Notes: generated from the sequence alone by a model not told the origin. A DNA stretch of 64,000 nucleotides from an uncultured Desulfobacteraceae bacterium (GCA_964418755.1 CAYQNS010000002.1:10561-74560), one strand, 5' to 3'. Shown: positions 25,345-59,379, numbered from the stretch's first letter. Made by a program: numbers and translations.

Positions 25345-26544
25345 ATGTTTACCTATATCGAAAATGAAAAATCAGCAAAGATAAAAGTGATCGGTGTTGG
25401 CGGGGCCGGTGGTAACGCCATAAACAACATGATCGAATCCCAGTTGAAGGGGGTAAAGTTCATCGTGGCCAACACCGATGCCCAGAGCCTTGAAACCTCC
25501 GAGGCACCGGTGAAGATTCAGATGGGAGAACGGTTGACCGAAGGGCTCGGGGCCGGTGCCAATCCACAGGTCGGCCGGGATGCGGCCCTTGAAAACGCGG
25601 ATGCTATCCAAAGCGCCCTGGAAGACAGCCATATGGTATTTATAACCGCAGGTTTCGGCGGCGGCACCGGTACCGGGGCCGCACCGGTTATTGCTGAGAT
25701 TGCCAAGGAGATGGGTGCCCTGACCGTGGCGGTGGTGAGCCGGCCGTTTTCATTCGAGGGTAAAAAGCGTGCCCGCCAGGCCGACGAAGGGATCGACGCC
25801 CTGAAAGAGGTGGCGGATACGGTCATCACGATTCCCAACGACCGCCTCAGGGGACTGGCCTCTAAAAGTGCAAAAATGATCGATATGTTCAAAAAAGCCG
25901 ACGAAGTCCTGCTGCACTCGGTAAAAGGTATCACCGATCTGATCATGATGCCCGGGCTGGTGAATCTCGACTTTGCCGATGTCCGGACCACCATGTCCAG
26001 AGCCGGTATGGCCATCATGGGCATCGGCATTGCCAGCGGTGAAAACCGGGCCGTGGAAGCTGCCGAACGGGCCATTTCTCATCCTCTCCTGGAAGATATT
26101 TCCATCTCGGGGGCCAAGGGTGTCCTGATGAACATCAGTTGTACCAGTGATCTGACCATGGAAGAGATGACCGAAGCCTCCGACAGAATCTACAAAGAGG
26201 TCGGCGATGATGCCGAAATTATCTGGGGAACGGTGATCGATGACAGCCTGGGAGATGAAATGCGGGTCACCGTTATTGCCACCGGCATCGGCAACGGTAT
26301 CGGCAACGGTGCAGGCAATTTTGCCCGTCCTGTCAAAATAGAGAAATTTGCACCGAGGGGCAAAATAAGAGATCTTACCCCGGCTGAAATGCAGGCGGCG
26401 ACCCACCTTGACGAGCCGACTTTCCTGCGGGAACAGAAAGCCGTGGGTGAATCATCAGGCGCCACTTATCGGGGCTATAAGGGGATTATAATCGACAATA
26501 ATGACCTTGATGTACCGACTTTTTTGAGAAGGAAAGCCGACTGA
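25345..26544 (+). CDS. ftsZ: cell division GTPase FtsZ
   Basis: It has the tubulin signature GGGTGTGAAPVIA and the conserved C-terminal peptide DLDVPTFLRRKAD. Confidence 0.97.
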   Translation: MFTYIENEKSAKIKVIGVGGAGGNAINNMIESQLKGVKFIVANTDAQSLETSEAPVKIQMGERLTEGLGAGANPQVGRDAALENADAIQSALEDSHMVFITAGFGGGTGTGAAPVIAEIAKEMGALTVAVVSRPFSFEGKKRARQADEGIDALKEVADTVITIPNDRLRGLASKSAKMIDMFKKADEVLLHSVKGITDLIMMPGLVNLDFADVRTTMSRAGMAIMGIGIASGENRAVEAAERAISHPLLEDISISGAKGVLMNISCTSDLTMEEMTEASDRIYKEVGDDAEIIWGTVIDDSLGDEMRVTVIATGIGNGIGNGAGNFARPVKIEKFAPRGKIRDLTPAEMQAATHLDEPTFLREQKAVGESSGATYRGYKGIIIDNNDLDVPTFLRRKAD

Positions 26545-26657
26545 TTGCTGCCGTGGATTCCAAAAGCCGGATATTTTCCGTATTGGATTGCAATTGCCGC
26601 CGGCAACTATCAGACACCATTTTTTCATTTAATATCACCTGAATACAGGAGGAATAA

Positions 26658-26849
26658 ATGAACAAACCAATACAAAAACGTGTATTATCAGGTAACGACA
26701 GACGTCTGCAGATTGAAAGAAGGCAGTTTAGCTATACACTGCATATCCCGGAGAGAAGATCAAAGGGTGAACGCAGGGGCCGGATTGCAGCAAACCATAT
26801 CATTCATTTTATCACAGCGGATACGCCGGAAAGTGTTCTGGCTGCCTGA
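26658..26849 (+). CDS. hypothetical small Arg-rich protein (63 aa)
   Basis: A strong SD (AGGAGG) lies 6 nt before the ATG. The product has repeated (D/E)RR motifs (NDRR, IERR, PERR, GERR). I recognise no homologous family. Confidence 0.45.
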   Translation: MNKPIQKRVLSGNDRRLQIERRQFSYTLHIPERRSKGERRGRIAANHIIHFITADTPESVLAA

Positions 26850-26941
26850 AGCAGGCGCCATGCGGACACCACCGGAGAACCGGTGTCGCGGACATTTCCG
26901 GGCAGGCCGAGGTTGAATTCAAGAAAAGAAATTATTGTCGG

Positions 26942-28627
26942 GTGCTGATGAGCACAAAAAACAGCAGGGCAGACAAAAGATTTATCGAAAAAGAAACCGG
27001 AGCGATTCGCAAGCAGTGGCGCAACCGGATCAGCCTGGCCCTTATTTATCCGAATCGCTATTTTGTCGGCATGTCCAATCTGGGATTTCAGACCGTTTAC
27101 CGCCTGCTCAACAACATGGACACGGTGGTATGTGAGCGGGTATTTTTACCGGGGCCCGATGCCCGGCCGTCCCAGCCCATCGTTTCGGTCGAATCCGGGA
27201 GACTTGTTACCGATTTTGAAATTATCGCATTTTCGATCTCCTTTGAAAACGATTATTCCAACCTATTGTCCATTCTCGAGAAAACCGGCATCCCCCTCCT
27301 GGCCAGTCAGCGAGGAACCCCCCTTCCTATAGTCGTGGCCGGAGGGGTTGCCTGTTTTTTAAACCCCGAACCGGTTGCTCCGTTTATCGACTGTTTCCTG
27401 CTCGGAGAAGCCGAAGGCCTGCTTTCTGAATTTATTACCGGTTATGAAAAACATTGCCGCGGTGTGGATGCCCCCAGGGACAAGTGCCTTGAAAAACTGG
27501 CCCGCAGTGTTCCGGGCCTCTATGCCCCCTCTCTTTACCAGCCGTACTACAATGCCGACGGAACAACACGCGATCTTGAACCGGTGGCTGACGTTCCGGA
27601 AAAAATTCATCGAATTTATGTACCGGACCTGTCGACGATTTCGACCTGCAGTGCCGTCTTGACACCCGATACGACTTTTGCAGATACCTATTTGATCGAG
27701 GTCAGCCGTGGATGTCCCCACGGATGCCGTTTCTGCACTGCCGGGTTTGTATATCGCCCCCCGAGATTCAGGCCATTGGACCTGTTGGAAGAATGCATGG
27801 CCCAAGGCATTGCCGCCGCCGACAAAATCGGACTGGTAGGGGCCGCTGTTTCCGATCTTCCATGGATTCGGGAGCTGTGCAGGAGATATGCCGGTCAAAG
27901 CCGGGTCTCTTTCAGTTCTCTGCGGGCCGACGCCATGGCACCCGAACTTGTGGCGACACTTCGGCAAAGCGGGGTCAAGACCGCAACCATTGCACCCGAA
28001 GCAGGCTCCGAACGGTTGCGCAAAGTCATCAACAAGGGGATCACCGAAAAGGATATCCTTACTGCCGCCGAGGTCCTTGTTGCCGGCGGAATACCCAACA
28101 TCAAGCTTTATTTCATGATTGGTCTGCCCACCGAAACCATGGAAGATGTCCATGCCATCGTTACCCTGTGCAAACAGATCAAAAGCAGATTCCTGAAATC
28201 CAGCCGGGTTCGGAGACATATCGGGGAACTCACCCTGAGCCTGAACTGTTTTGTACCCAAGGCAGTTACACCCTTTCAATGGGCTTCCATGGATGATATC
28301 GGTGCTCTGAATAAAAAGATCAAGTTGATCAAAAACGGCCTGAGAAGGGTTGCCAATGTCCGGATCAATACCGATATACCGCGCCGGGCCTATATCAATG
28401 CTCTCCTGTCACGCGGAGATCGAAAGGTTGCCCGGATACTGCTGGCTGCCCACGGTTATCACGGCAATTGGCCCCAGACCTTCAAAGCATCTTCCCTTGA
28501 CGCCGATTTTTATGTCCGACGCCAACGCGCCGTAGATGAAGTTTTCCCCTGGGATTTCATTGACTGCGGCGTTAAAAAATCTTTTTTAAAAAAAGAATAT
28601 GTACGCGCGCTTCAGGATAAATCGTAA
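26942..28627 (+). CDS. radical SAM protein with N-terminal B12-binding-like domain (TIGR03960-like, function unknown)
   Basis: It has the CxxxCxxC motif (GCPHGCRFC). The N-terminal pattern LIYPNRYFVGMSNLGFQ..Y..LN....CERVF matches my recollection of that uncharacterised family. Confidence 0.8.
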   Translation: MLMSTKNSRADKRFIEKETGAIRKQWRNRISLALIYPNRYFVGMSNLGFQTVYRLLNNMDTVVCERVFLPGPDARPSQPIVSVESGRLVTDFEIIAFSISFENDYSNLLSILEKTGIPLLASQRGTPLPIVVAGGVACFLNPEPVAPFIDCFLLGEAEGLLSEFITGYEKHCRGVDAPRDKCLEKLARSVPGLYAPSLYQPYYNADGTTRDLEPVADVPEKIHRIYVPDLSTISTCSAVLTPDTTFADTYLIEVSRGCPHGCRFCTAGFVYRPPRFRPLDLLEECMAQGIAAADKIGLVGAAVSDLPWIRELCRRYAGQSRVSFSSLRADAMAPELVATLRQSGVKTATIAPEAGSERLRKVINKGITEKDILTAAEVLVAGGIPNIKLYFMIGLPTETMEDVHAIVTLCKQIKSRFLKSSRVRRHIGELTLSLNCFVPKAVTPFQWASMDDIGALNKKIKLIKNGLRRVANVRINTDIPRRAYINALLSRGDRKVARILLAAHGYHGNWPQTFKASSLDADFYVRRQRAVDEVFPWDFIDCGVKKSFLKKEYVRALQDKS

Positions 28628-28772
28628 TTGCCATGCCCCATGCGGCCATGCATTGCATGCGGGGTGTGTAATAGCAATTAACCAATTAAATTTAATAGTT
28701 ATTTGTTAAAAATTCAACCAAATTTTTTATAAAAATGCGTAAAACCCGGAGTAAAAAATACTTGAAAGATAA

Positions 28773-28797
28773 AAGATGGTATGTTAATTACCATCTT
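28773..28797. promoter_or_regulatory. perfect 9-bp inverted repeat AAGATGGTA-N7-TACCATCTT overlapping a candidate promoter of the cytochrome/rnf operon
   Basis: TTGAAA lies at 28762-28767, and 17 nt later TAATTA sits inside the repeat loop. The repeat is about 65 nt upstream of the cytochrome ATG. Confidence 0.3.
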
Positions 28798-28860
28798 TGT
28801 TTTATTGATGTCCATGCAGCTTTTTGTTAGATGTCCAAATTGTGAAAGGAATCCTGTAGC

Positions 28861-29289
28861 ATGACCTCAAAGAAGGAATTGAAGTTTGCCTACCGCCTTG
28901 CGATTGTTCTTATGATTTTAGGAATTTTCTGCTATGCGGCCTACTCACAGAAGATCCCGGATCCCCCCATGCGAATGATGTTTCAAAGCGCCGCCGGAAA
29001 GATTCTCTTTGACCACCAAAGCCATGATGTAAACTATGGCATCGCATGCATTGACTGCCATCATCACTTTGAAGAAGAGGAAACCGAGTTTCGGGCCTGT
29101 GGCGACTGTCATGTCCATCCCGATGCAAAACCACCGACTGCAGTCTGCCTGGAGTGCCACGAAGAGGACGAAGTCGATCCTGGGGAAGATGCTCTTGAAA
29201 GGGCGGACGCATTCCACGACCAGTGTATCGGCTGCCATGAAGAAAATGATATTGAGCCTGTCCAATGTTCGGGATGTCATGTCATGTAA
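28861..29289 (+). CDS. membrane-anchored/secreted multihaem cytochrome c (five CXXCH; cytochrome c3/c7-like)
   Basis: It has an N-terminal hydrophobic segment, then CIDCH, CGDCH, CLECH, CIGCH and CSGCH. F-D-H-x-x-H precedes the first haem motif, as in class III cytochromes. Confidence 0.85.
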   Translation: MTSKKELKFAYRLAIVLMILGIFCYAAYSQKIPDPPMRMMFQSAAGKILFDHQSHDVNYGIACIDCHHHFEEEETEFRACGDCHVHPDAKPPTAVCLECHEEDEVDPGEDALERADAFHDQCIGCHEENDIEPVQCSGCHVM

Positions 29290-29345
29290 AATCGAATTTT
29301 CCGGCCGACTCTTGTTTGTCACCATCCAAAATTAAGGTTAAGCTT

Positions 29346-30632
29346 ATGATAAAGAGAGCATTCCGGGGTTTAAAAGCCCCACAAATCGAGTATGAACTGC
29401 TGCATGACACACCGGTCGGGCCCAGAAGCATCTTGCCGTCGAAAACAGTTACGCTCCTGCTGCCGGGTAAATACGAACGGAAAGACAAATTGACCCTGTG
29501 CGCCGGGGATAGCATTAAAACCGGGCAAAAACTCAGTCCCTATGAAGATAGCGACGATTATGCAATATCGAGCGTAACCGGCACGATTGCCTCCGTGGCG
29601 CCTTATACCGGCGATTTCGGGCAGTCCTTCACGACGATCATCATTCAGGCCGCTGAAAAAGAAAAAACCGATGACGCCTTTTCCGCTGCATGCAGTGATT
29701 CGGTGCGAAACGCCGTCACGGATTTTTTGGCCTGCGTGCCGGGAAGACCGCCGCTGGATCTTCTGGCCCGTCCTGACAAGCCCATTCACACCCTTGTGAT
29801 ATGCGGTATGGACGCAGATTTGATGATCGCCACCAACCAGCATATTATCAAAACCCGGATCGACGCAGTGACCCGCGGAATAAAAATTCTAAAAAATGCC
29901 TATGGCATTGAGAAGGCCATTATCGCCCTTCCCAGAGACCTGGTTTCCGGGTTCGGGCATGTGGGCGCCCGGTTGATTGCCGTCGATGCCTGCTATCCGT
30001 CCGCCAATCACCGCATGATCATGTACAAGGCGCTAAAACAGGTAGTGCCGGCGGATAAAAACTGCGAAGACCTTGGTGTCTGTTTTATCAGCGCCGAGGC
30101 CGCGGCTTCCATTGGAAGTGCCTTTGAAAAGGGCAGAATACCGTTTACCAAAACCATTACCCTGATCAACAAAGACCGAAAAAAAATAATGATTTCAGCC
30201 CGGATCGGCACCCCGGTAAGGGACATCTTCAAGGCCTGCGATGTCACGGTCAACGAACGGGACCGCATCATTTTCGGCGGCCCCATGACCGGCACGGCCG
30301 TCTTTTCGGAAAACCATCCCGTCGGGCCGGATACCGATGCCATTATCGTGCAGGCCAATAAAGACGTTACGCTGGTTTCAGATTATCCATGTGTCAACTG
30401 CGGCGAATGCGTCCGTCTATGTCCGGCCAACATTCAAGTCAACATGCTGGTCCGGTTTCTCGAGGCCGGAGAGTATCAGACCGCCGCCGATGAGTATGAC
30501 CTCCACTCCTGCATTGAATGCGGACTTTGCAGCTTTGTGTGTGAATCAAAAATACCTGTTTTTCAATATATTCGACTGGCAAAATATGAGCTTGCCCGGG
30601 AGAAAGCAGCGGAGGCAATCGATGATGAATAA
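29346..30632 (+). CDS. rnfC: RnfC-like subunit (2x[4Fe-4S]; nucleotide-binding loop apparently degenerate)
   Basis: The start was trimmed to ATG 29346 (MIKRAF, AAGG upstream). It has an RnfC_N-like barrel, GGPMTG, CVNCGECVRLCP and CIECGLCSFVCE. It is followed by rnfDGEA. Confidence 0.8.
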   Translation: MIKRAFRGLKAPQIEYELLHDTPVGPRSILPSKTVTLLLPGKYERKDKLTLCAGDSIKTGQKLSPYEDSDDYAISSVTGTIASVAPYTGDFGQSFTTIIIQAAEKEKTDDAFSAACSDSVRNAVTDFLACVPGRPPLDLLARPDKPIHTLVICGMDADLMIATNQHIIKTRIDAVTRGIKILKNAYGIEKAIIALPRDLVSGFGHVGARLIAVDACYPSANHRMIMYKALKQVVPADKNCEDLGVCFISAEAAASIGSAFEKGRIPFTKTITLINKDRKKIMISARIGTPVRDIFKACDVTVNERDRIIFGGPMTGTAVFSENHPVGPDTDAIIVQANKDVTLVSDYPCVNCGECVRLCPANIQVNMLVRFLEAGEYQTAADEYDLHSCIECGLCSFVCESKIPVFQYIRLAKYELAREKAAEAIDDE

Positions 30633-31581
30633 CAAAAAGTTCATAGTATCCCATGCGCCTTTTTATCACAATGGAAGCAAAATCTCCTCTACCGGCTATA
30701 ATATCATGGGGGCGACCCTGCCTGCCGTACTGATGGGCATTTACATATACGGGGTGCCTGCCCTGGGCGTGGTGGCGCTCTCCATATCTTCGGCCATGCT
30801 CTGGGAACTGCTCATGAACAAAGTGATGAAGCTTCCGGTAACCATCGGTGACGGGAATGCAGCTCTCATCGGTATGCTTTTTGCCATGCTGGTTCCGGCC
30901 ACCCTTCCCTGGTGGGCGGTCGTCACCGGAACTTTTACGGCCATTGTCATCGGTCAACAAATCTACGGCGGCATCGGCGGTAATCCGTTTAATCCGGTGA
31001 TCGTGGCCCTTACCATCCTCATGGTCTCCTGGAAGGATATCTTTGATTTTGACACTGCCCTGCTCAACTATGATTTTAATTTTGTAACCCTTTATCCTCT
31101 GGCAGCCCTGAAGCATTTTGGTTTGTCGTCAGTGGAAAGCTTTACACCCGGCGCACTTTTGCTGGGGCAGCAAACCGGCGGTATCGGTTCAACCTTCGGG
31201 CTGGGGCTTATCCTGGGCGGCATCTACCTTATTATAAGAGGGTATATCCGCTGGGAAATATCCCTTTCTTTTCTGGGAGGCGTCCTGATCACCGCATGGC
31301 TCTTCCAGTTGTCTGATCCGGCTGTTTATGCGGGGCCTGTTTTTCACCTTTTGACCGGTTATACCCTTATCGGGGCTTTTTTCCTGGCCACTGAAAATTC
31401 TTCCTCGCCGGTTAATTTCATCCCGATGCTGATTTACGGTGCCGGGGGTGGTATCATGGCGGTACTTATTCGTAATATCGGGGTTTATGTTGACGGCGTT
31501 CTTTTGGCTATTCTTCTTATGAACCTGGTTAATCCCATGCTGGATAAAATCAGACCCAAAGCACTTGGAAAGGTAGTGTAA
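30622..31581 (+). CDS. rnfD: RnfD/NqrB-family membrane subunit
   Basis: ATG 30622 has GGAGG 6 nt upstream and overlaps the rnfC stop. The N-terminus (VSHAPFYH) and the polytopic profile are typical of RnfD. Confidence 0.88.
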   Translation: MMNNKKFIVSHAPFYHNGSKISSTGYNIMGATLPAVLMGIYIYGVPALGVVALSISSAMLWELLMNKVMKLPVTIGDGNAALIGMLFAMLVPATLPWWAVVTGTFTAIVIGQQIYGGIGGNPFNPVIVALTILMVSWKDIFDFDTALLNYDFNFVTLYPLAALKHFGLSSVESFTPGALLLGQQTGGIGSTFGLGLILGGIYLIIRGYIRWEISLSFLGGVLITAWLFQLSDPAVYAGPVFHLLTGYTLIGAFFLATENSSSPVNFIPMLIYGAGGGIMAVLIRNIGVYVDGVLLAILLMNLVNPMLDKIRPKALGKVV

Positions 31582-31582
31582 A

Positions 31583-32173
31583 ATGCGCGAAATGATAAAA
31601 ATGGTAGTTGTTCTTACCATTCTGAGCTCTCTTTCAGGGGGCCTTCTGGCGGCGGTACGCAATGGCACCAAAGACAGGATTGAAAATCAGCAGCTTCAGA
31701 TGGTTAAGGGGCCCGCCATTCGTGCAATCCTGGAAGGCTGTACAAATGATCCCGTGGCCGATCGTTTTAAACTCAAGGACGACGCCACGGAAAGAAGCTT
31801 TTTTATCGGTATTTTTAACGGCAAACATGAAACCATAGCTTTTGAAGCCAGCGGCAAAGGGTATGGCGGCGATGTCGGTCTGATGGTGGCCGTCAATCTC
31901 ACAAACGACAAACTGGTGGGCGTCGGCGTTACCACCCACAGTGAAACGCCGGGACTCGGTGCCAAAGCAAAAACCGACCCTGCTTTTTCAAAACAGTTTA
32001 AGGGAGCTTCGATCCTGGAGCCTTTCAAGGTGACCAATGACGGTGGAGTAATCAATGCCCTCAGCGGTGCAACAATCACATCTAGAGCCGTTTGTGCGGC
32101 CGCCACTGAGGCAGGTCGAATTTACCAGCGGCTTAAACCCCAAATCAGCGATAAATTAAAGAGCTTACCCTAA
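31583..32173 (+). CDS. rnfG: RnfG/NqrC-family FMN-binding subunit
   Basis: It has an N-terminal TM helix, ETPGLGAK, and the flavinylation motif LSGATITS. Confidence 0.9.
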   Translation: MREMIKMVVVLTILSSLSGGLLAAVRNGTKDRIENQQLQMVKGPAIRAILEGCTNDPVADRFKLKDDATERSFFIGIFNGKHETIAFEASGKGYGGDVGLMVAVNLTNDKLVGVGVTTHSETPGLGAKAKTDPAFSKQFKGASILEPFKVTNDGGVINALSGATITSRAVCAAATEAGRIYQRLKPQISDKLKSLP

Positions 32174-32186
32174 CAGGGAGATCAAA

Positions 32187-32780
32187 ATGGCCAAATCGAT
32201 TGTTCAGGAATTTACCAAGGGGCTGTGGAATGAAATACCGCCGTTCAGGCTGGTACTTGGTCTCTGCCCTGTTCTGGGTGTTACAACGACAATGGAAAAC
32301 GGGCTCGGTATGGGGATTGCGACCACATTTGTCCTGTTATGCTCCAATGTTCTGGTTTCGGCCCTGCGCAGCGTTATTCCCGCCAAGGTAAGGATTGCCT
32401 GCTTCATCATCATTATCGCCACCTTTGTGACGGTGGTCGAACTTCTCATGCAGGCCTTTGCGTACTCACTGTTTCTCAAGCTGGGTATGTTTATCCCGCT
32501 GATCGTTGTCAACTGTATCGTGCTGGGGCGGGCCGAGGCATTTGCCTTCAAAAACAACATGGTTCTGTCCATGGCCGACGGTCTGGGCATCGGCATCGGA
32601 TTTACCCTCAGTCTGGGCGCCCTGGGAGCCGTTCGCGAGATTCTCGGTACAGGCACATTTTTTGGTAATGCACTGTTCGGCGCATCTTTCCATCCGTTTG
32701 TCTTTATGGTCCAGGCACCGGGCGCCTTTGTATGCCTGGGCCTGATGCTCTGTTTCATGAACATGGTCGGGAATAAATAG
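32187..32780 (+). CDS. rnfE: RnfE/NqrD-family membrane subunit
   Basis: It contains the LGLCPVLGVTT and PLIVVNCIVLGRAEAFA motifs. Confidence 0.9.
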   Translation: MAKSIVQEFTKGLWNEIPPFRLVLGLCPVLGVTTTMENGLGMGIATTFVLLCSNVLVSALRSVIPAKVRIACFIIIIATFVTVVELLMQAFAYSLFLKLGMFIPLIVVNCIVLGRAEAFAFKNNMVLSMADGLGIGIGFTLSLGALGAVREILGTGTFFGNALFGASFHPFVFMVQAPGAFVCLGLMLCFMNMVGNK

Positions 32781-32796
32781 ATTTAGGAGAAAGTAA

Positions 32797-33372
32797 ATGG
32801 GCGACTACATTGTCCTTATCATCAGCTGCATTTTTGTAAATAATATCCTGCTGGCCCAGTTTTTAGGAAACTGCCCTTTTTTTGGTACCTCCAAAAAGAT
32901 GGAAACCGCGGTGGGCATGGCCATGGCCGTCATATTCGTTCTGGTTATGGCCGGAGCCATTACTTGGATGGCCGAAACCTTTATTCTGCAAAAGTTCGGC
33001 CTGGAATTTTTACGCACCATCGTATTTATCCTGGTCATCGCGGCTCTGGTGCAATTCGTGGAGATGTTTTTGAAAAAAAGTATTCCGGCCCTGTACGCCG
33101 GACTGGGTATCTTTCTACCGCTGATCACCACCAACTGTGCCGTCATGGGGGCCTGTCTGATCAACATCAAGGAAGAGTACACCTTTGTCCAGACTTTGGT
33201 TGCGTCTTTCAGCTACGCGTCCGGTTTCGGCCTGGCACTGATTCTTTTTGCCGGTCTGCGGGAACGGATACTGCTTGCAAGGGTACCCAAACCGCTTCAG
33301 GATACCTCTATTGCGCTTATTACCGCAGGTATTATTTCTCTTTCCTTTTTTGCCTTCAGGGGAATGGTGTAG
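32797..33372 (+). CDS. rnfA: RnfA/NqrE-family membrane subunit
   Basis: It contains the LGNCPFFG and LPLITTNCAVMG motifs and is 191 aa. Confidence 0.9.
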   Translation: MGDYIVLIISCIFVNNILLAQFLGNCPFFGTSKKMETAVGMAMAVIFVLVMAGAITWMAETFILQKFGLEFLRTIVFILVIAALVQFVEMFLKKSIPALYAGLGIFLPLITTNCAVMGACLINIKEEYTFVQTLVASFSYASGFGLALILFAGLRERILLARVPKPLQDTSIALITAGIISLSFFAFRGMV

Positions 33373-33383
33373 GAAAATTACAG

Positions 33384-33941
33384 ATGGCCGAACATGTATG
33401 CCCGGTATGGGTTGGATATCTTCTGGCCAGCCCTTTGAGAAAAATATTCCAGAATCCTGACAAAATACTTTCCGCCTACGTAAAAGAAGGTATGAAGGTT
33501 CTGGATATTGGTTGTGCAATGGGTTTTTTCAGTCTTCCCATGGCCCGGATGGTAGGTTCCGGCGGCAAGGTAATCTGTGTGGACATCCAACCTAACATGC
33601 TTTCATCTTTAAAAAAAAGAGCTGAAAAAGCCAAAATGGCGCAAAGGATTGAAATGCGCCTTGCCAATCGTGATTCCTTTTGCATTGATGATTTGAAAGG
33701 CAAAATCGATTTTATTATAACCTCCGCGGTTGCCCATGAACTGCCTGACCCTTTACTTTTTTTTTCTGAAACATGGGAAGTCTTGACGGAAAAGGGGACA
33801 TTTTTACTGACGGAACCGTCCGGTCATGTTTCCAAAAAAAAGTTCAAAGCAACGATTTCAACGGCCGAAGCCCAGGGGTTTAAAGTCATGAAGAGGCCCC
33901 GGATAAAGCGCAGTCACAGTGTTTTACTGGGAAAGGCTTGA
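33384..33941 (+). CDS. class I SAM-dependent methyltransferase
   Basis: It has motif I, VLDIGCAMGFF. The N-terminus is H-x-CP-x-W...L..PLRK. Only the part from ATG 33384 of the 32964..33941 ORF is taken, because the upstream part overlaps rnfA out of frame. Confidence 0.8.
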   Translation: MAEHVCPVWVGYLLASPLRKIFQNPDKILSAYVKEGMKVLDIGCAMGFFSLPMARMVGSGGKVICVDIQPNMLSSLKKRAEKAKMAQRIEMRLANRDSFCIDDLKGKIDFIITSAVAHELPDPLLFFSETWEVLTEKGTFLLTEPSGHVSKKKFKATISTAEAQGFKVMKRPRIKRSHSVLLGKA

Positions 33942-36730: not shown

Positions 36731-38212
36731 ATGGCCAGAAGAAATTTAAAAGCAAATTTTTCAACACGATCGGGGTTCGGTATCAATGCGTTTACAGACA
36801 ACGAACTGGAGGCGATTCATTTTGCATCCCTTGAAGTGCTTCAAAGGACAGGAGTCAAGATTGAATCCGAAAAAGCGCTGGAAATTTTCCACGGGGCCGG
36901 GGCAAGTGTCGAGCAACACGACGGTTATGGTATTGTCAAAATCCCGAATTATATTGTCGAGGACTGTATCCGCCGGGCTCCCAGAATCGGATGCTATTAC
37001 GGCAGACGTCCTGAAGACGATTATATTACCGATGGGGCCCGGGTCGGTTTTTCGGCAGGGTTCGGCGAACATGTCAAAATCATCGACCTGGATACAAAAA
37101 AGGTCAGGTCAACGGTAAAAAAGGATCTGGCAGCCATTACGCGGATTCAGGATTATCTGGATGTCATTACAATCGTAGAACGGGCCGCCTGTTCAGGCGA
37201 TCAGCCACCGGCGACCCAGACGCTGCATAATTACGAAGCCATGGTCCAAAATTCCAGCAAGCACTGTTTTTTAGGATTCGGATGCGGCAAAAATGCCGAA
37301 AAAATTATCGAGATGGCAAAAATTGCCTCCGGCGGGGAGGATAAATTCAAAAACCGCCCCATTGTGACCGGCTTTGTCTGCCCGACCAGTCCGCTGACAA
37401 TTATTCGGGACGGTTGTGAAACCATCATGACATGTGCCGAAAACGGCGTCGGTATTGCCGTGATTTCCATGTCCATTTCCGGGGCATCTTCGGCCGCAAC
37501 CCTGGGCAGTGTCGTGGTGCAGCATAATGCCGAAGTCTTAAGCGGCATCGTACTGGCCCAGCTCACGGCCAAGGGGACCCCATGCACCTACTGCGGATGC
37601 AGTACCATCATGGATATGCGAACGGGCCTGTCTCCCGTGGGGGTCCCGGAAATGGGGCTGCTCAGCGTGGCATGGGCAAAGCTGGCCCAGTACTACCAGC
37701 TTCCCAGCCTGGTGGGCGGCTGCGGCTCGGACAGCAAGCTCCCGGACGCCCAGCAGGCTTATGATTTCAGTCTGACCGCCATGCCCGCGGCCCTGGCCGG
37801 TGCCAACATCATCTACGGTATCGGTGCCATCGAGTCGATTCTCACCTTTGACTATGCCGCCATGATCATGGGGGCTGAACAGGCGGAAAGGATTATGCGG
37901 GTTGTCGGCGGGATTGACGTCAGCGATGAGGCCATGGCCCTGGATTTAATCCATGAAATCGGCCCCGGCGGTCAATTTCTCACCCATGAACATACCTACC
38001 GACACATGAGAGAGATGTCCCAGTCAAAGCTGTTTGACCGAAGGACCCGTGATGCATGGATGGATGCCACAGGCGGCATGGATATTGCGCAGCGCGCTTA
38101 TAAAGAAGCCGGGCGAATCATAAACGAGCATACACCGGCGCCCCTGCCCGAGGGCGCGGCAACAGCCATGCGGGCGATCATTAAAGAGTATGAAGCGGAG
38201 CTCGGGTTATAA
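36731..38212 (+). CDS. MttB-superfamily (trimethylamine methyltransferase family) protein, non-pyrrolysine type
   Basis: The 493-aa ORF is uninterrupted. The N-terminus (F.D.ELE.IH..SLEVL...GV) and the overall length are typical of COG5598. AAGAGG lies upstream. Confidence 0.85.
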   Translation: MARRNLKANFSTRSGFGINAFTDNELEAIHFASLEVLQRTGVKIESEKALEIFHGAGASVEQHDGYGIVKIPNYIVEDCIRRAPRIGCYYGRRPEDDYITDGARVGFSAGFGEHVKIIDLDTKKVRSTVKKDLAAITRIQDYLDVITIVERAACSGDQPPATQTLHNYEAMVQNSSKHCFLGFGCGKNAEKIIEMAKIASGGEDKFKNRPIVTGFVCPTSPLTIIRDGCETIMTCAENGVGIAVISMSISGASSAATLGSVVVQHNAEVLSGIVLAQLTAKGTPCTYCGCSTIMDMRTGLSPVGVPEMGLLSVAWAKLAQYYQLPSLVGGCGSDSKLPDAQQAYDFSLTAMPAALAGANIIYGIGAIESILTFDYAAMIMGAEQAERIMRVVGGIDVSDEAMALDLIHEIGPGGQFLTHEHTYRHMREMSQSKLFDRRTRDAWMDATGGMDIAQRAYKEAGRIINEHTPAPLPEGAATAMRAIIKEYEAELGL

Positions 38213-41456: not shown

Positions 41457-42558
41457 ATGTCCATCGAACTTAAACAATCCATCAAGGACAGCAAAACAAA
41501 ACTGGCCCAGTTACTGGAGTATCTTTGACCTGACCGGCAAGGAAAAAAGAATCCAGGAAATAGAAGCGGTCATCGCCCGCCCGGGGTTTTGGGACCATCC
41601 CGAAAAGACCAGAAACATCCTGCGGGAACGAACGTTTCTGACCGGCAGGGTGGACGGCTTTCAGGCCCTTGAAAAAGACCTGGAAGACAGTGAACTGCTG
41701 TTTGAAATGGCTTTAGAGGAGTCGGACGCCCAGACCATCGAGGAGGTCGGGCAACAGATGAAATCCATAAGGACCCGAATTCAAAAATACCGGCTTGATA
41801 TGATGCTCGACGGTAAGAATGATAAAAATAATGCCATCATTTCCATCAATGCCGGAGCCGGCGGTACCGAAGCCCAGGACTGGTCTGAAATTCTTTTCCG
41901 GATGTATGCCCGCTGGGTTGAGCGAAAGGGGTACACGTCCGATATCATTGATTTTCAACCCGGCGACGAGGCCGGCATCAAGAGTGTTACCTTTACGGCT
42001 GCGGGTGAATATGCTTATGGATACCTGCAAACCGAGCAGGGAGTCCACAGATTGGTTCGGATCTCCCCGTTTAATGCCAACGGCAAGCGTCACACCTCCT
42101 TTGCTTCGGTATTCGTGTATCCGGAACTGGATGATGAGATTGTTATCGATATCGATGACAAGGACCTGCGCATCGATGTTTTCAGGGCCAGCGGCGCCGG
42201 AGGCCAGCATGTTAACAAGACCAGTTCTGCAGTGAGGATCACCCATCAACCCAGCGGGATTGTTGTGCAGTGCCAGCAGGAAAAATCCCAGCACCGCAAC
42301 AAGGAGATGGCCATGAAGGTTTTAAAATCAAGGCTGTATGACAGTGAAAAACAAAAGCAGGAAGAAAAACTGCAGAAAATTCATGACGCCAAGGATGATA
42401 TCGCCTGGGGCAGTCAGATCCGTTCCTATATTTTACACCCCTATCAGATGGTAAAGGACCACCGCCTGAAGATGGATGTCGGCAATGTAAACGAGGTGCT
42501 GGACGGGGGCCTGGATCCTTTTATCGAAGGGGCGCTGCTGGCTAAAAAGTTGACCTAA
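41457..42558 (+). CDS. prfB: peptide chain release factor 2 (requires programmed +1 frameshift at 41523-41529)
   Basis: Frame 0 (MSIELKQSIKDSKTKLAQLLEYL) ends at CTT TGA C. The +1 frame continues as DLTGKEKRI... through SPF and GGQHVN motifs. AGGAGG lies upstream of ATG 41457. Confidence 0.92.
41517..41529 (+). other. RF2 autoregulatory +1 frameshift site GGAG-TAT-CTT-TGA-C
   Basis: It has an internal SD-like GGAG 3 nt before the slippery CTT and an in-frame TGA followed by C. This is nearly identical to the E. coli AGGGGG TAT CTT TGA C site. Confidence 0.9.
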
Positions 42559-48741: not shown

Positions 48742-50763
48742 ATGGAGGAAAGAATGGAAGCTGTATTAAATAATCTACCGTTGTATTGTGCGATGGTTGG
48801 TGTTGTGGGCGTAATTTTTGCCATAATACTCGCCGTTTCTGTCAAAAGTGCACCGGCCGGCGATGAAAAAATGCAGGAGATTGCCGGAGCTATTAAGGAA
48901 GGCGCCATTGCCTATCTGAACCGTCAGATGAAAAGCATGGGAATTGCCGGTGTTATTATATTTATTATTATTTTTGCCACGTTAGGTGCCACGACCGCCA
49001 TTGGTTTTCTGATTGGCGCAGTGGCGTCCTTTATAGCCGGCTACATTGGAATGCGGGTGTCCGTAATTGCCAATGTCAGGACGGCGGAAGCAGCCAAAAA
49101 GGGAATGGCTGCGGGCCTTGCAATGGCTTTCAAGGGCGGATCGGTCACCGGTATGATCGTTGCCGGTCTGGCACTGTCTTCAGTTGCCGGCTATTATGCG
49201 TTTACTCATGATGTGATAGCCCTTGTAGCCTTAGGGTTTGGCGGAAGCCTGATCTCCATATTTGCCAGGCTTGGCGGCGGTATCTTCACCAAGGGCGCCG
49301 ATGTGGGCGCTGACCTGGTGGGCAAGGTCGAGGCAGGAATCCCCGAGGATGATCCGCGCAACCCGGCTACCATTGCCGATAATGTCGGCGACAACGTGGG
49401 GGACTGCGCCGGAATGGCGGCCGACCTTTTCGAGACCTATGCAGTTACGGCTGTGGCTGCCATGCTCATCGGTCACCTGCTTTTCCCCGAGATTCCCATG
49501 GCAGTCGAATTTCCGCTGATGCTGGGCGCCATCTCCATTATCGCCTCCATTATTGCCGTATTTTTCGTACGGCTCGGCAAGAGCGAATATATCATGGGCG
49601 CCCTCTACAAGGGGATGTTCGGTGCCGCTATCATCGCGGGCGTTGCCTTTTATTATGCCTGCACCCGGTTCATGGGTGACCTGGGTGATATCAGTGCGAT
49701 GAATATCTATTACTGCACGCTGATCGGTCTGGTGCTGACCGTTGTAATTGTTATTATTACTGAATTTTACACGGGGATCTACAGCCCGGTAAAGAGCATC
49801 GCAGAAGCCTCCACCACCGGACACGGCACCAACATCATCGCCGGTCTGGCCGTTTCCATGCAGGCTACTGCAGCCCCGGTTCTGGCCATCTGCCTGGCCA
49901 TCTTTATGTCCTATAATTTTGCCGGCATCTATGGTCTTGCCATGGCCGCCATGTCCATGCTTTCCATGACCGGTATGGTGATTGCTATTGACGCCTACGG
50001 CCCCATCACCGACAATGCCGGCGGCATCGCCGAGATGGCCGGGATGGATGAGAGTGTCCGTGCCGTGACCGATCCTCTGGATGCGGTAGGCAACACCACC
50101 AAGGCCGTTACCAAGGGATACGCCATTGGATCAGCCGCTTTGGCCGCCCTGGTTCTTTTTGCCGCTTATGTGCAGGAATTCACAATCCACGGCGCCGAAG
50201 AGGGTATCAAATTCGATCTGGCCGATGTCAACGTTCTTATCGGTCTGTTTATCGGCGGACTGCTGCCCTACCTGTTTGCCTCCATTGCCATGAAGGCCGT
50301 TGGAAATGCAGGCGGCGCGGTTGTTGAAGAAGTGCGTCGTCAGTTCCGTGAAATCCCCGGAATCATGGAAGGAACCGCAAAACCCGATTACGGTGCATGT
50401 GTGGATATTGTCACCAAATTCGCCCTCAAGGAGATGCTGATGCCGGCACTGCTGCCTATTATTGCGCCTCTTCTGGTTGGTTTCCTGCTCGGCAAAGTCG
50501 CCCTGGGCGGTCTGTTGATCGGCTCCATTGTTACCGGCGTGTTTCTCGCGCTGTCCATGACCACCGGCGGCGCTGCCTGGGATAATGCGAAAAAATATAT
50601 TGAAGACGGTCACCTGGGTGGTAAAGGCAGCGAAGCTCACAAAGCTGCAGTTACCGGCGACACAGTCGGCGATCCTTATAAGGATACCGCAGGTCCGGCC
50701 ATTAACCCGATGATCAAAATTCTGAATGTTGTTGCACTGCTCATGGTTCCCTTTCTGCTGTAA
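48742..50763 (+). CDS. hppA: membrane-integral proton-translocating pyrophosphatase (K+-independent signature)
   Basis: The 673-aa polytopic protein has [19 protein letters not shown] and DNVGDNVGD motifs. It carries [10 protein letters not shown] (Lys/Thr variant). Confidence 0.95.
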
Positions 50764-50810
50764 AAAGGTACCTGCAGCAATCAGAATATGATTGCACTGT
50801 AAAAATAAAA

Positions 50811-50843
50811 AGGATTGGTGCTTTTTTGCACCAATCCTTTTTT
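50811..50843 (+). terminator. intrinsic terminator after hppA
   Basis: AGGATTGGTGC-tttttt-GCACCAATCCT forms a perfect 11-bp stem followed by TTTTT. Confidence 0.85.
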
Positions 50844-50924
50844 ATTGATTGTTATCGGCAGGTGTGGTATTATTCAGTACTCAATCGAAATCACTTCACA
50901 TATTTTTTTTACTATTGCCGTGAA

Positions 50925-51500: not shown

Positions 51501-51509
51501 TCAGCAAAC

Positions 51510-59179: not shown

Positions 59180-59379
59180 GTCAGCCTCCTTTAACCTTAA
59201 TTCCATTTTTTTGAAAAATCACCTTTTTTTATTGACGATGCATTATCATCACGGTGAAATCGAGAAGAACCGGGCCGGGCTGTCTGCCCTGGGAGTGTTA
59301 AAAAACATTCAGATGAGCAGTAATGGGTTATTCCATCCCGGCATAAACTCAACACGATTATTAATAGAAAGTTCAGGCC

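What the first reader, a model, noticed from the sequence alone, without database searches (positions are those of the whole stretch)
29346..31581. RnfC lacks the Gly-rich nucleotide/flavin loop and RnfD appears to lack the FMN-accepting threonine
Seen in the sequence: as I recall, canonical RnfC carries G-x-G-G-A-G-F-P followed by I-N-G-A-E-C-E-P-Y. This protein reads ...DFLACVPGRPPLDLL... and ...LVICGMDADLMIATNQ... at those positions. Both ferredoxin-type motifs (CVNCGECVRLCP, CIECGLCSFVCE) are intact. In RnfD the segment that normally reads (S/T)-G-A-T-P-L...LK reads ...NFVTLYPLAALK..., which puts Tyr at the position of the covalently flavinylated Thr. RnfG keeps its SGATITS flavinylation motif. 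The alignments were done by eye from remembered consensus sequences and may be mis-registered. If they are correct, the NADH site and one of the two covalent FMNs are missing, which fits a rewired electron path.
Basis: partly seen in the sequence, partly recalled or inferred. Interest (0 to 1): 0.65.

Follow-up and report, generated by a model that had tools for sequence, protein, structure and literature searches.

The report
Cytochrome-linked Rnf lacking two flavin sites
This is a known but biochemically untested variant of the Rnf membrane redox complex of sulfate-reducing Desulfobacterales, whose RnfC has no NADH/FMN site, whose RnfD has a tyrosine where FMN is normally attached, and which carries its own small periplasmic cytochrome c.

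Summary
Formal alignments to solved Rnf structures place 'CVPGRPP' and 'CGMDADLM' of the window RnfC where canonical RnfC has GxGGAxFP and NAAECEPY. They place Tyr158 of RnfD exactly on the FMN-bearing Thr153 of C. tetanomorphum RnfD. Both 4Fe-4S motifs of RnfC, the SGAT flavinylation site of RnfG and the Cys pairs of RnfA and RnfE are intact.

The losses are not a local accident. They are fixed in all 120 closest homologues, in about 100 representative clusters at 50% identity, and in 78 related loci, including MAGs labelled Spirochaetota and Pseudomonadota. The genes are under purifying selection (dN/dS 0.02-0.17).

The type always has a 4-5-haem cytochrome c3-like gene upstream. It usually has a ~700-aa RnfB fused to a GltD/NfnB-like NAD(P)H-FAD module. 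That gene is missing from the window, and a close relative keeps only a decayed remnant of it.

The RnfC half of the finding is already published as the 'Desulfobacula toluolica Tol2-type Rnf' (Wöhlbrand 2013, cited in Dörries 2016). I found no report of the RnfD Thr-to-Tyr change.

The most likely function is electron exchange between cytoplasmic carriers and the periplasmic cytochrome c pool through the RnfG FMN. This is inferred and has not been tested.

The parts
28861..29289 (+). Small acidic pentahaem cytochrome c (142 aa, about 16 kDa, pI 4.8). It has an N-terminal hydrophobic anchor or signal, belongs to the cytochrome c3 family, and is the first gene of the operon.
   Evidence: Five CxxCH motifs at aa 63, 80, 96, 122 and 136, and 11 His. 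Pfam Cytochrom_CIII 42.4 bits. Weak hit to NCBIfam TmcA. A homologue is found upstream of rnfC in 79 of 80 related loci, with 5 haems in 61 and 4 in 18, and also in L082-L084. pI and mass.
29346..30632 (+). RnfC-like subunit. It has the RnfC fold and two [4Fe-4S] motifs but no FMN/NAD(H) site.
   Evidence: AlphaFold2 model with mean pLDDT 84.8. Best Foldseek hits are RnfC chains (TM 0.75-0.81), followed by NqrA (0.62-0.66).
29733..29753 (+). 'CVPGRPP' occupies the place of the GxGGAxFP flavin/nucleotide loop. Pro132 and Gly133 are invariant within the clade.
29802..29825 (+). 'CGMDADLM' occupies the place of 'NAAECEPY'. The clade consensus is xGxDxDLLxxTNQ and Asp158 is invariant.
30390..30545 (+). 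Two ferredoxin-type Cx2Cx2Cx3C motifs (CVNCGECVRLC and CIECGLCSFVC). All eight Cys are invariant in the clade.
30622..31581 (+). RnfD (319 aa). Its start overlaps the end of rnfC by 11 nt. It meets the family HMM cut-offs but lacks the covalent-FMN site.
   Evidence: Pfam NQR2_RnfD_RnfE 281 bits. TIGR01946 216.9 bits against a 207.05 cut-off. Alignments.
31093..31095 (+). TAT codon for Tyr158 of RnfD, at the position of the FMN-bearing Thr (Thr153 in C. tetanomorphum).
   Evidence: The position is Tyr in 72 and Phe in 3 of 75 clade sequences (the window and 74 loci), and Tyr in L082-L084.
31583..32173 (+). RnfG, a periplasmic FMN-binding subunit. The SGAT flavinylation motif at nt 32063-32074 (Thr164) is intact.
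   Evidence: NCBIfam RnfG_DVU2794 258.2 bits against a 205 cut-off. Pfam FMN_bind. Alignment to 8ahx_G..
32187..32780 (+). RnfE. The conserved Cys27 and Cys110 are present.
32797..33372 (+). RnfA. The conserved Cys26 and Cys114 are present. It is the most constrained gene of the operon (dN/dS about 0.02).
33373..33393 (.). Synteny break point. In most relatives a ~700-aa RnfB-GltD-like gene sits here. In the window an unrelated SAM methyltransferase (33394-33941) follows.
   Evidence: blastn synteny with L002-L005 ends at 33373-33379. There is no RnfB-like sequence in the 64 kb. Independent contigs of three runs span the junction without differences. L002 carries a stop-interrupted remnant of the fusion gene.

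Best explanation
The locus encodes a member of the cytochrome-associated 'Tol2-type' Rnf complex of Desulfobacterales, with gene order cytochrome c, rnfC, rnfD, rnfG, rnfE, rnfA.

Shown by sequence:
- RnfC keeps the RnfC fold and two [4Fe-4S] sites but has no NuoF-type FMN/NAD(H) pocket.
- RnfD has Tyr in place of the FMN-Thr, and its flavin pocket is remodelled.
- The FMN site of RnfG and the Cys ligands of the RnfA/RnfE iron-sulfur centre are intact.
- A membrane-anchored pentahaem cytochrome c is co-encoded.
- These features are inherited together across a large clade and are under purifying selection.

Inferred:
- The complex no longer runs the canonical U-shaped path that ends at NAD+ on RnfC.
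- The periplasmic FMN of RnfG instead exchanges electrons with the co-encoded cytochrome c.
- The machine therefore links cytoplasmic carriers to the periplasmic cytochrome c pool of the sulfate reducer. In most relatives those carriers are NAD(P)H and/or ferredoxin, entering through an RnfB fused to a GltD/NfnB-like FAD module and the RnfA/E centre.
- RnfC has become an FeS-only subunit, an intermediate state between RnfC and the cofactor-free NqrA. Its redox partner is unknown.
- The adjacent rnfB fusion gene has been lost in the lineage of the window. Either a copy exists elsewhere in the genome, or the RnfC clusters are the only cytoplasmic port.
- Whether electron transfer is still coupled to Na+/H+ translocation is open.
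For: - Motif losses are in register against three solved Rnf structures and E. coli Rsx.
- The aligned Thr is residue 153 of 7zc6_D, and PMC9588780 states that this residue carries FMN.
- Further pocket changes occur in the clade: G237Y, N90L and E185S/A. The roles of these residues are taken from PMC9588780.
- The losses are clade-wide: 120 of 120 closest homologues, about 100 of 108 full-length representatives at 50% identity, 75 of 75 clade RnfD sequences (the window and 74 loci), and three distant loci.
- The module cytc-rnfCDGEA is constant: 79 of 80 loci and three distant contigs.
- An RnfB with Fer4_20 and Pyr_redox_2 domains is adjacent in 41 of 51 informative loci.
- Purifying selection acts on all genes.
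- The RnfG and RnfA/E sites are retained.
- Literature: the Tol2-type Rnf has a large NAD-binding RnfB and an RnfC lacking the NADH-oxidoreductase and SLBB domains. Its cluster includes a small acidic cytochrome. Five of its six subunits were detected in D. multivorans under all conditions tested (PMC5109826).
Against: - No biochemical data exist for any member of this type.
- If RnfC were off-path, its eight invariant Cys would be unexpected.
- rnfB is absent from the window, so the proposed cytoplasmic input through RnfA/E has no visible donor here.
- In D. alaskensis, whose membership of this type I could not establish, the upstream cytochrome gene was dispensable under most conditions while rnf was needed (PMC4215793).
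- A non-covalently bound flavin in RnfD, or a swing of the RnfG flavin into the RnfD pocket, cannot be excluded from sequence (compare PMC10979944).
Confidence: 0.45

Rival explanations
1. Conservative relocation. The overall reaction is still ferredoxin:NAD(P)+ oxidoreduction along the usual U-shaped path. The GltD/NfnB-like FAD module tethered to RnfB docks next to RnfC, takes electrons from the RnfC [4Fe-4S] clusters and replaces the lost FMN/NAD site. The cytochrome is an accessory or side outlet. In the window genome the long RnfB would be encoded elsewhere.
For: - The RnfC Cys ligands are invariant, which argues that RnfC is still on the path.
- The RnfB-GltD fusion co-occurs with the flavin-less RnfC in 41 of 51 loci and in distant phyla.
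- In the C. tetanomorphum structure, RnfB and RnfC are firmly associated and the NAD cleft is partly formed by RnfB (PMC9588780).
Against: - The path from the RnfG FMN to RnfC normally needs the RnfD FMN, which has no attachment site here.
- It does not explain the strictly co-inherited cytochrome c.
- Six loci with adequate flanks, the window, and D. phosphitoxidans as described in PMC4046663 have no adjacent rnfB.
- The rnfB fusion is a decayed remnant in L002 while rnfCDGEA stays under selection.
Confidence: 0.25
2. Three-port or bifurcating machine. The NfnB-like FAD of the long RnfB splits or joins electrons among NAD(P)H, a low-potential carrier (ferredoxin, possibly through the RnfC clusters) and the higher-potential periplasmic cytochrome c.
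For: - The fused module has the Fer4_20 and Pyr_redox_2 architecture of GltD/NfnB-type proteins.
- There are two cytoplasmic FeS arms plus one periplasmic haem arm.
- Some loci add NuoE/NuoF/FdhA-like genes or a second fusion paralogue.
Against: - The idea rests only on domain content. GltD-like modules are not all bifurcating.
- The window itself lacks the module.
Confidence: 0.12
3. Relic. After loss of rnfB the operon in this lineage is non-functional, or RnfC and RnfD are only structural.
For: - rnfB is absent from the window, and only a remnant is left in the 86%-identical relative.
- RnfC is the least constrained gene of the operon, with dN/dS 0.14-0.17.
Against: - All six ORFs are intact and tightly packed.
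- dN/dS is 0.02-0.17 for every gene against four relatives.
- The cofactor losses long predate the rnfB loss, because they are fixed in relatives that keep rnfB.
Confidence: 0.05
4. Alignment artefact. The flavin and NADH sites are present but shifted.
For: Sequence identity to solved RnfC chains is low (20-23%).
Against: - Three independent methods give the same register.
- Flanking blocks are well aligned, for example 'PDKxI..(I/V)V' just before the ECEP position.
- No such motif occurs anywhere in the proteins.
- Curated HMM scores are below threshold.
Confidence: 0.02

Closest known systems
Desulfobacula toluolica Tol2-type Rnf (Rnf2 of Desulfococcus multivorans and D. autotrophicum HRM2), from Wöhlbrand et al. 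2013 as summarised in Dörries et al. 2016 (PMC5109826)
   Same: - The host is a member of Desulfobacterales.
- RnfC lacks the NADH-ubiquinone-oxidoreductase (Complex1_51K) and SLBB domains.
- A small acidic cytochrome c lies in the cluster (16 kDa, pI 4.8 here; 15 kDa, pI 5.3 there).
- The gene order is rnfCDGEA.
   Different: - The ~700-aa NAD-binding RnfB that defines the type is missing from the window, although it is present in 82%-identical relatives.
- The loss of the flavinylation Thr in RnfD is not mentioned in the accessible description.
The 'type four' cluster of Desulfotignum phosphitoxidans: cytochrome c plus rnfCDGEA without rnfB (PMC4046663)
   Same: The six-gene layout is the same: a putative cytochrome c followed by rnfCDGEA, with no adjacent rnfB.
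   Different: Only gene order was described there. Cofactor sites were not analysed, and I did not examine that sequence.
Canonical Rnf (A. woodii, C. tetanomorphum, A. vinelandii; PDB 9eri, 7zc6, 8ahx)
   Same: - The subunit set C, D, G, E and A is the same.
- The RnfC fold matches (TM 0.75-0.81).
- The two RnfC [4Fe-4S] sites, the RnfG FMN-Thr and the RnfA/E Cys pairs are kept.
   Different: - There is no FMN/NAD site in RnfC.
- There is no FMN-Thr in RnfD, and neighbouring pocket residues are changed.
- A cytochrome c is added.
- RnfB is fused to an NAD(P)H-FAD module in relatives, or absent as in the window.
Na+-NQR (V. cholerae; NqrA is the RnfC homologue without cofactors)
   Same: - The RnfC-family subunit has lost its flavin/NAD site.
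- In relatives the pyridine-nucleotide site sits on the input-side subunit, which is analogous to NqrF.
   Different: - NqrA has also lost both FeS clusters, whereas here they are kept.
- NqrB keeps its FMN-Thr, whereas here it is lost.
- There is no NqrF and no evidence for a quinone site.
- The profile match to NqrA is weak (32.9 bits against 157 bits for RnfC).
Methanosarcina acetivorans Rnf with the multihaem cytochrome MmcA
   Same: A multihaem cytochrome c gene comes first in an rnfCDGEA(B) operon, and NAD+ is not the acceptor.
   Different: In M. acetivorans the known cofactor sites of RnfB, RnfC, RnfD and RnfG are reported to be conserved (bioRxiv 10.1101/2022.07.20.500911). The cytochrome there is not a c3-type protein.
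Two-subunit Nqr/Rnf-like complexes (Méheust 2021; PMC10979944)
   Same: The NqrB/RnfD-like subunit lacks the flavinylation Thr, while the RnfG-like partner keeps it. Outward electron transfer from NAD(P)H to extracytosolic acceptors has been proposed for these complexes.
   Different: Those complexes have only two subunits, with an NAD-binding domain (PF00175) fused to the RnfD-like protein. Here the full C, D, G, E, A set is present.

Membership tests
Canonical Rnf (ferredoxin:NAD+ oxidoreductase) | RnfC reaches the curated family thresholds (TIGR01945; Pfam Complex1_51K) | tested here: not met
   181.6 against 245.95 bits, and 27.1 against 31.2 bits.
Canonical Rnf (ferredoxin:NAD+ oxidoreductase) | RnfC has the GxGGAxFP loop and the ECEP motif of the NuoF-type FMN/NAD(H) site | tested here: not met
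   They are replaced by CVPGRPP and CGMDADLM. No such motif occurs anywhere in the protein.
Canonical Rnf (ferredoxin:NAD+ oxidoreductase) | RnfC has two Cx2Cx2Cx3C [4Fe-4S] motifs | tested here: met
   aa 349-360 and 389-400. The Cys are invariant in the clade.
Canonical Rnf (ferredoxin:NAD+ oxidoreductase) | RnfD has Thr in an (S/T)GAT motif for ApbE-dependent covalent FMN | tested here: not met
   Tyr158 aligns to Thr153 of 7zc6_D. There is no [ST]G[AS][ST] motif in the protein.
Canonical Rnf (ferredoxin:NAD+ oxidoreductase) | RnfD, RnfG, RnfE and RnfA reach the family HMM thresholds | tested here: met
   TIGR01946 216.9 (cut-off 207.05); RnfG 119 (cut-off 102), and 258 for the DVU2794 model; TIGR01948 244.7 (cut-off 213.4); TIGR01943 247.6 (cut-off 229.3).
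Canonical Rnf (ferredoxin:NAD+ oxidoreductase) | RnfG has the flavinylated Thr (SGAT) | tested here: met
   SGAT at aa 161-164 aligns to GATIT of 8ahx_G.
Canonical Rnf (ferredoxin:NAD+ oxidoreductase) | RnfA and RnfE each have the conserved Cys pair for the intramembrane iron-sulfur centre | tested here: met
   RnfA C26 and C114, and RnfE C27 and C110, align with the E. coli RsxA and RsxE Cys.
Canonical Rnf (ferredoxin:NAD+ oxidoreductase) | rnfB is encoded with the operon | tested here: not met
   tblastn finds no RnfB-like sequence in the 64 kb. The junction is confirmed in three independent assemblies.
Canonical Rnf (ferredoxin:NAD+ oxidoreductase) | Ferredoxin:NAD+ oxidoreductase activity coupled to ion translocation | not testable with these tools
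   This needs biochemistry.
Tol2-type Rnf (Wöhlbrand 2013; Dörries 2016) | [quoted passage not shown] | tested here: met
   Complex1_51K is below threshold and there is no PF10531 hit. Canonical RnfCs do carry PF10531.
Tol2-type Rnf (Wöhlbrand 2013; Dörries 2016) | Large (~700 aa) RnfB with NAD-binding sites | tested here: not met
   It is absent from the window. It is present next to the operon in 41 of 51 informative related loci and in L082-L084. L002 has a remnant.
Tol2-type Rnf (Wöhlbrand 2013; Dörries 2016) | Small acidic cytochrome c encoded in the cluster | tested here: met
   142 aa, 16 kDa, pI 4.8, five CxxCH motifs.
Tol2-type Rnf (Wöhlbrand 2013; Dörries 2016) | Orthology with the D. 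toluolica or D. multivorans Rnf2 proteins themselves | not tested
The assignment rests on shared features and on Desulfobacterales relatives such as Desulfonema magnum P0059.
Na+-NQR | NqrA-like subunit devoid of FeS clusters, with NqrF as the NADH-FAD-2Fe2S input | tested here: not met
   The FeS motifs are kept. The NqrA models score far below their cut-offs (82.5 against 450). No NqrF-like gene is present in the operon.
Desulfovibrio DhcA-Rnf (D. vulgaris DVU2791-2798, D. alaskensis Dde_0580-0587) | Same subfamily of subunits and the same cofactor losses | tested here: inconclusive
   RnfG meets NCBIfam RnfG_DVU2794 (258 against a 205 cut-off). No Desulfovibrio RnfC or RnfD sequence could be retrieved.

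The most novel reading that the evidence does not exclude
The Tol2-type Rnf is a distinct respiratory machine and not a ferredoxin:NAD+ pump. It would be an Rnf core that has lost both flavins of the RnfD-RnfC branch and uses the periplasmic RnfG flavin to feed a dedicated multihaem cytochrome. An NfnB-like FAD on RnfB would possibly bifurcate between ferredoxin and the cytochrome pool. In the lineage of the window, which lacks rnfB, the flavin-less RnfC clusters would be the sole cytoplasmic port. That arrangement would make a ferredoxin:cytochrome c oxidoreductase across the membrane.
Probability: 0.15. Interest if true: 0.8.

Novelty: new member of a known kind. Interest (0 to 1): 0.45.

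Why it matters
- Genome-based models of marine and hypersaline sulfate reducers, and of the syntrophic partners of methane and alkane oxidisers, routinely book 'Rnf' as a ferredoxin:NAD+ sodium pump (for example PMC10553843).
- The type found here is present in at least 536 species-level genomes. Its RnfC cannot bind NAD(H) and its RnfD cannot be flavinylated at the canonical site.
- Its reaction, redox partners and energy coupling are therefore probably different, and energy budgets built on the canonical reaction may be wrong.
- It is also a natural intermediate on the RnfC-to-NqrA road, because the flavin is lost while the FeS clusters are kept.
- It amounts to a natural 'T-to-Y' experiment on the RnfD/NqrB flavin site. 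That is useful for testing current models in which the RnfD FMN gates ion translocation.

Tried and rejected
- I tried to decide whether the genetically studied Desulfovibrio Rnf (DVU2792, Dde_0581) shares these losses. Three protein searches and two cluster look-ups returned Desulfobacterales, Desulfarculaceae, Spirochaetota, Poribacteria and unnamed proteins, but no named Desulfovibrio sequence. The question is left open.
- I looked for rnfB or a remnant of the RnfB-GltD gene in the window using E. coli RsxB and the L004 fusion as queries. Only chance hits came back.
- I considered a misassembly at the rnfA/methyltransferase junction. It was rejected because contigs from three runs span the junction.
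- I considered an alternative flavinylation residue, the Thr two positions before Tyr158. It was rejected because it is not conserved in the clade.
- I considered Pfam Complex1_51K as evidence for a retained site. The hit covers only profile positions 23-148, is below threshold, and leaves out the N-terminal 22 profile positions.
- The promoter and terminator scan of the operon gave nothing above shuffled expectation.
- The run search (kind 'any') returned no RNA runs for this sequence, so expression could not be checked.
- Pereira et al. 2011 and Wöhlbrand et al. 2013 were not readable in the library. Their content is cited only through papers that summarise them.
Full report
**1. What is at the coordinates**

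Window 28861-33372 holds six tightly packed genes on the + strand, with gaps of -11 to +56 nt. They are:
- a 142-aa cytochrome c;
- RnfC (29346-30632);
- RnfD (real start about 30622, end 31581);
- RnfG (31583-32173);
- RnfE (32187-32780);
- RnfA (32797-33372).

Upstream lie the dcw cluster ending in ftsZ and a radical-SAM gene. Downstream lies an unrelated SAM methyltransferase. The finding's interval covers RnfC and RnfD.

**2. Check of the observation: RnfC**

- phmmer against PDB chains aligns the window RnfC over aa 52-422 to the RnfC chains of C. tetanomorphum (7zc6_C) and A. vinelandii (8ahx_C). The A. woodii chain (9eri_C) aligns over aa 136-419.
- In the C. tetanomorphum alignment '[15 protein letters not shown]…[22 protein letters not shown]' lies over 'FLACVPGR-PP--LDLL…PDKPIHTLVICGMDADLMIATN'.
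- MAFFT with E. coli RsxC gives the same columns.
- Neither G.GG[AGS].F nor E[CS]EP occurs anywhere in the protein.
- The curated models agree. TIGR01945 scores 181.6 bits (cut-off 245.95). Complex1_51K scores 27.1 bits (cut-off 31.2), and only over profile positions 23-148. No SLBB domain is detected.
- Both Cx2Cx2Cx3C motifs are intact.
- An AlphaFold2 model built on 40 relatives is confident (mean pLDDT 84.8). It is closest to the solved RnfC chains (TM 0.75-0.81) and then to NqrA (0.62-0.66).

The fold is therefore RnfC, but the flavin/nucleotide loop is gone.

**3. Check of the observation: RnfD and RnfG**

- The window 'FNFVTLYPLAALK' aligns with 'TDTVTTATPLALLK' (A. woodii), 'DGVTTATPLAILK' (C. 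tetanomorphum) and 'GISQATPLDTFK' (E. coli).
- The Thr over the window Tyr158 is residue 153 of 7zc6_D. Vitt et al. identify this residue as the one bonded to the FMN phosphate (PMC9588780).
- RnfD contains no other [ST]G[AS][ST] motif. The Thr at -2 is not conserved in relatives.
- Further residues that the same paper places at the RnfD flavin or the adjacent Na+ site are also changed in the clade:
  - Gly237, which contacts the isoalloxazine ring, is Tyr in 74 of 75 sequences and Phe in 1.
  - Asn90 is Leu in 71 of 75.
  - Glu185 is Ser, Ala or Thr.
  - Asp248 is Glu in 67 of 75 and Asp in 8.
- The best Nqr hit of the window RnfD was a PDB NqrB chain that reads 'GYSGAYAL'. To my knowledge the wild type has the FMN-Thr (T236) at that Tyr.
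- RnfG keeps SGAT (Thr164), in register with A. vinelandii RnfG.
- RnfA (C26, C114) and RnfE (C27, C110) keep the conserved cysteine pairs.

**4. The losses are a family trait**

- All 120 closest homologues (52-100% identity) lack both RnfC motifs.
- Within the clade the region is conserved in a new form: 'PGxPP' with Pro132 and Gly133 invariant, and 'xGxDxDLLxxTNQ' with Asp158 invariant.
- A filter-free search of 1.84 billion representatives gave 231 clusters at E ≤ 1e-30. Of the 108 full-length proteins among the best 150, about 100 lack both motifs and 105 of the 108 keep two FeS motifs. Canonical RnfCs with GxGGAxF and ECEP first appear at about 146 bits.
- A scan of one genome per species found at least 536 loci. 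The best 80 are labelled Desulfobacterales or Desulfobacteraceae, or more broadly delta-proteobacterial, Thermodesulfobacteriota or, once, Pseudomonadota.
- Among 75 clade RnfD sequences (the window and 74 of those loci) the flavinylation position is Tyr in 72 and Phe in 3.
- Three distant members, with RnfC about 30% identical and including MAGs labelled Spirochaetota and Pseudomonadota, also read 'YPL' or 'YPM'.
- Against four relatives (82-86% nucleotide identity) every gene is under purifying selection. dN/dS values are RnfA 0.02, RnfE 0.07-0.10, RnfD 0.09-0.12, RnfG about 0.12, cytochrome 0.09-0.12 and RnfC 0.14-0.17.

**5.

(a) Cytochrome c:
- A c3-family cytochrome gene precedes rnfC in 79 of 80 loci and in all three distant contigs.
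- In the window it has five CxxCH motifs, an N-terminal hydrophobic anchor, a mass of 16 kDa and a pI of 4.8.

(b) The long RnfB:
- In 41 of 51 loci with informative flanks, a ~700-aa protein lies next to the operon.
- It is an RnfB N-terminus (TM helix, PF04060 FeS, ferredoxin domain) fused to Fer4_20 and Pyr_redox_2. This is the GltD/NfnB-type NAD(P)H-FAD architecture.
- Four loci have a short RnfB and six have none.

(c) The window has no rnfB at all in 64 kb:
- Synteny with L002-L005 stops within 7 nt of the rnfA stop codon.
- L004 and L005 (82% identity) have the fusion gene at that place.
- L002 (86% identity) has only its last ~80 codons, interrupted by stop codons.
- Contigs from three different salt-lake runs cross the rnfA/methyltransferase junction without a difference.
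- The adjacent rnfB fusion was therefore lost recently in this lineage, while rnfCDGEA and the cytochrome stayed under selection.

**6. What the literature already says**

- Dörries et al. 2016 (PMC5109826) summarise Wöhlbrand et al. 2013 as follows.
  - It has an RnfB of about 700 aa that contains NAD+-binding sites.
  - Its mode of action 'awaits experimental verification'.
- D. multivorans and D. autotrophicum have both an A. woodii-type Rnf1 and this Rnf2. The rnf2 cluster includes a 15-kDa acidic cytochrome. Five Rnf2 subunits were found in membrane proteomes under all conditions tested.
- Poehlein et al. 2013 (PMC4046663) describe 'cytochrome c + rnfCDGEA' without rnfB in D. phosphitoxidans.
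- The RnfC half of the finding, and the gene layout, are therefore known.
- In the searchable library I found no statement that RnfD of this type lacks the flavinylation threonine.
- A 2025 Rnf/Nqr review makes no mention of sulfate reducers or Desulfovibrio.
- A precedent for an RnfD-like protein without the Thr exists only in the two-subunit 'Nqr/Rnf-like' complexes (PMC10979944).
- For M. acetivorans, the other cytochrome-linked Rnf, the known cofactor sites are reported as conserved.

**7. How it most likely works**

The canonical path is (PMC9588780):

Fd → RnfB → Fe-S(RnfA/E) → FMN(RnfG) → FMN(RnfD) → riboflavin → 2×[4Fe-4S](RnfC) → FMN(RnfC) → NAD+

- Here the last flavin and the FMN of RnfD have no binding determinants. 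The periplasmic RnfG flavin and a co-encoded periplasmic multihaem cytochrome are conserved.
- The most economical reading is that the RnfG FMN exchanges electrons with the cytochrome. This would link the cytoplasm, through RnfA/E and in most relatives an NAD(P)H-binding RnfB, to the periplasmic cytochrome c network of the sulfate reducer.
- That part is inference. I give it a probability of about 0.45.
- It does not explain why the RnfC clusters are invariant.
- The main rival (0.25) keeps the U-shaped path. It lets the GltD-like module tethered to RnfB replace the lost RnfC flavin as the NAD(P) site. It must then bridge the gap left by the RnfD FMN and account for the cytochrome.
- A three-port or bifurcating design (0.12) and a relic (0.05) are less likely.
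- Whether ion translocation survives the remodelling of the RnfD flavin/Na+ region cannot be judged from sequence. E. coli RsxD also differs at Asn90 and Glu185.

**8. Link to Desulfovibrio: unresolved**

- The window RnfG meets NCBI's 'RnfG_DVU2794' exception model (258 bits, cut-off 205). This suggests that the D. vulgaris complex is of the same lineage.
- In D. alaskensis an attempt to show Fd:NAD+-coupled ion-gradient formation in vesicles was reported as unsuccessful (PMC4841214).
- I could not retrieve a Desulfovibrio RnfC or RnfD to check the sites, so no claim is made.

**9. Verdict**

- The locus is a further member of an already described, widespread and biochemically uncharacterised Rnf type. 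Here it lacks the adjacent long rnfB gene.
- The clade-wide replacement of the RnfD flavin threonine, together with Gly237, appears to be an unreported detail. It sharpens the case that this 'Rnf' does not run the textbook reaction.
- Interest is moderate (0.45). The novelty class is new member of a known kind.

Noticed in passing
L002:12034-12388: Right after rnfA, the 86%-identical relative carries a remnant of the C-terminal part of the RnfB-GltD fusion gene. It reads ANDKGHIMQLEYLK…DMLITAIEQGP, has in-frame stops, and the N-terminal ~500 codons are missing. This catches the gene loss in progress.
   Followed up: yes
window 41457-42558: prfB (release factor 2) has the classical programmed +1 frameshift site CTT TGA C at 41523. 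The N-terminal 22 codons are in one frame and the PCRF/RF-1 domains are in the next.
   Followed up: partly
window 36731-38212, 58127-59206 and 33394-33941: There is an MttB-family (trimethylamine or glycine-betaine type) methyltransferase, a URO-D/MtaA-like methyltransferase, and a small SAM methyltransferase with a weak hit to 'corrinoid protein-associated methyltransferase'. Reads matching the window come mostly from salt-lake metagenomes, so methylated-amine or osmolyte metabolism is plausible.
   Followed up: no
window 48742-52493; L084:14377-17284: H+-pyrophosphatase, CarD and a pseudouridine synthase lie 15 kb downstream of the operon in the window. The same three genes directly flank the RnfB-GltD gene in the distant locus L084. 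This may be a trace of an ancestral neighbourhood that was rearranged at the rnfA break point.
   Followed up: no
L082:12113-16320; L083:12021-17188: Distant members extend the module. A Spirochaetota MAG has two tandem RnfB-GltD paralogues followed by NuoE-like genes. Another MAG has RnfB-GltD followed by genes resembling FdhA/NuoG, NuoE and NuoF.
   Followed up: no
window 25345-28627 and related loci: The arrangement ftsZ, radical-SAM (Radical_SAM_N2) gene, cytochrome c, rnfCDGEA is conserved in many Desulfobacterales loci. The Rnf operon therefore sits at the end of the cell-division (dcw) cluster.
   Followed up: partly
window 28772-28798: A perfect 10-bp-arm inverted repeat (AAAGATGGTA…TACCATCTTT) lies in the AT-rich 233-bp spacer upstream of the cytochrome gene. 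It could be the terminator of the radical-SAM gene or an operator.
   Followed up: no
database annotation of homologues: NCBI's pipeline names most of these RnfC-like proteins '4Fe-4S dicluster domain-containing protein', because they fail the RnfC model cut-off. JGI calls them 'ferredoxin:NAD+ oxidoreductase subunit C'. Both names hide the distinct type.
   Followed up: partly
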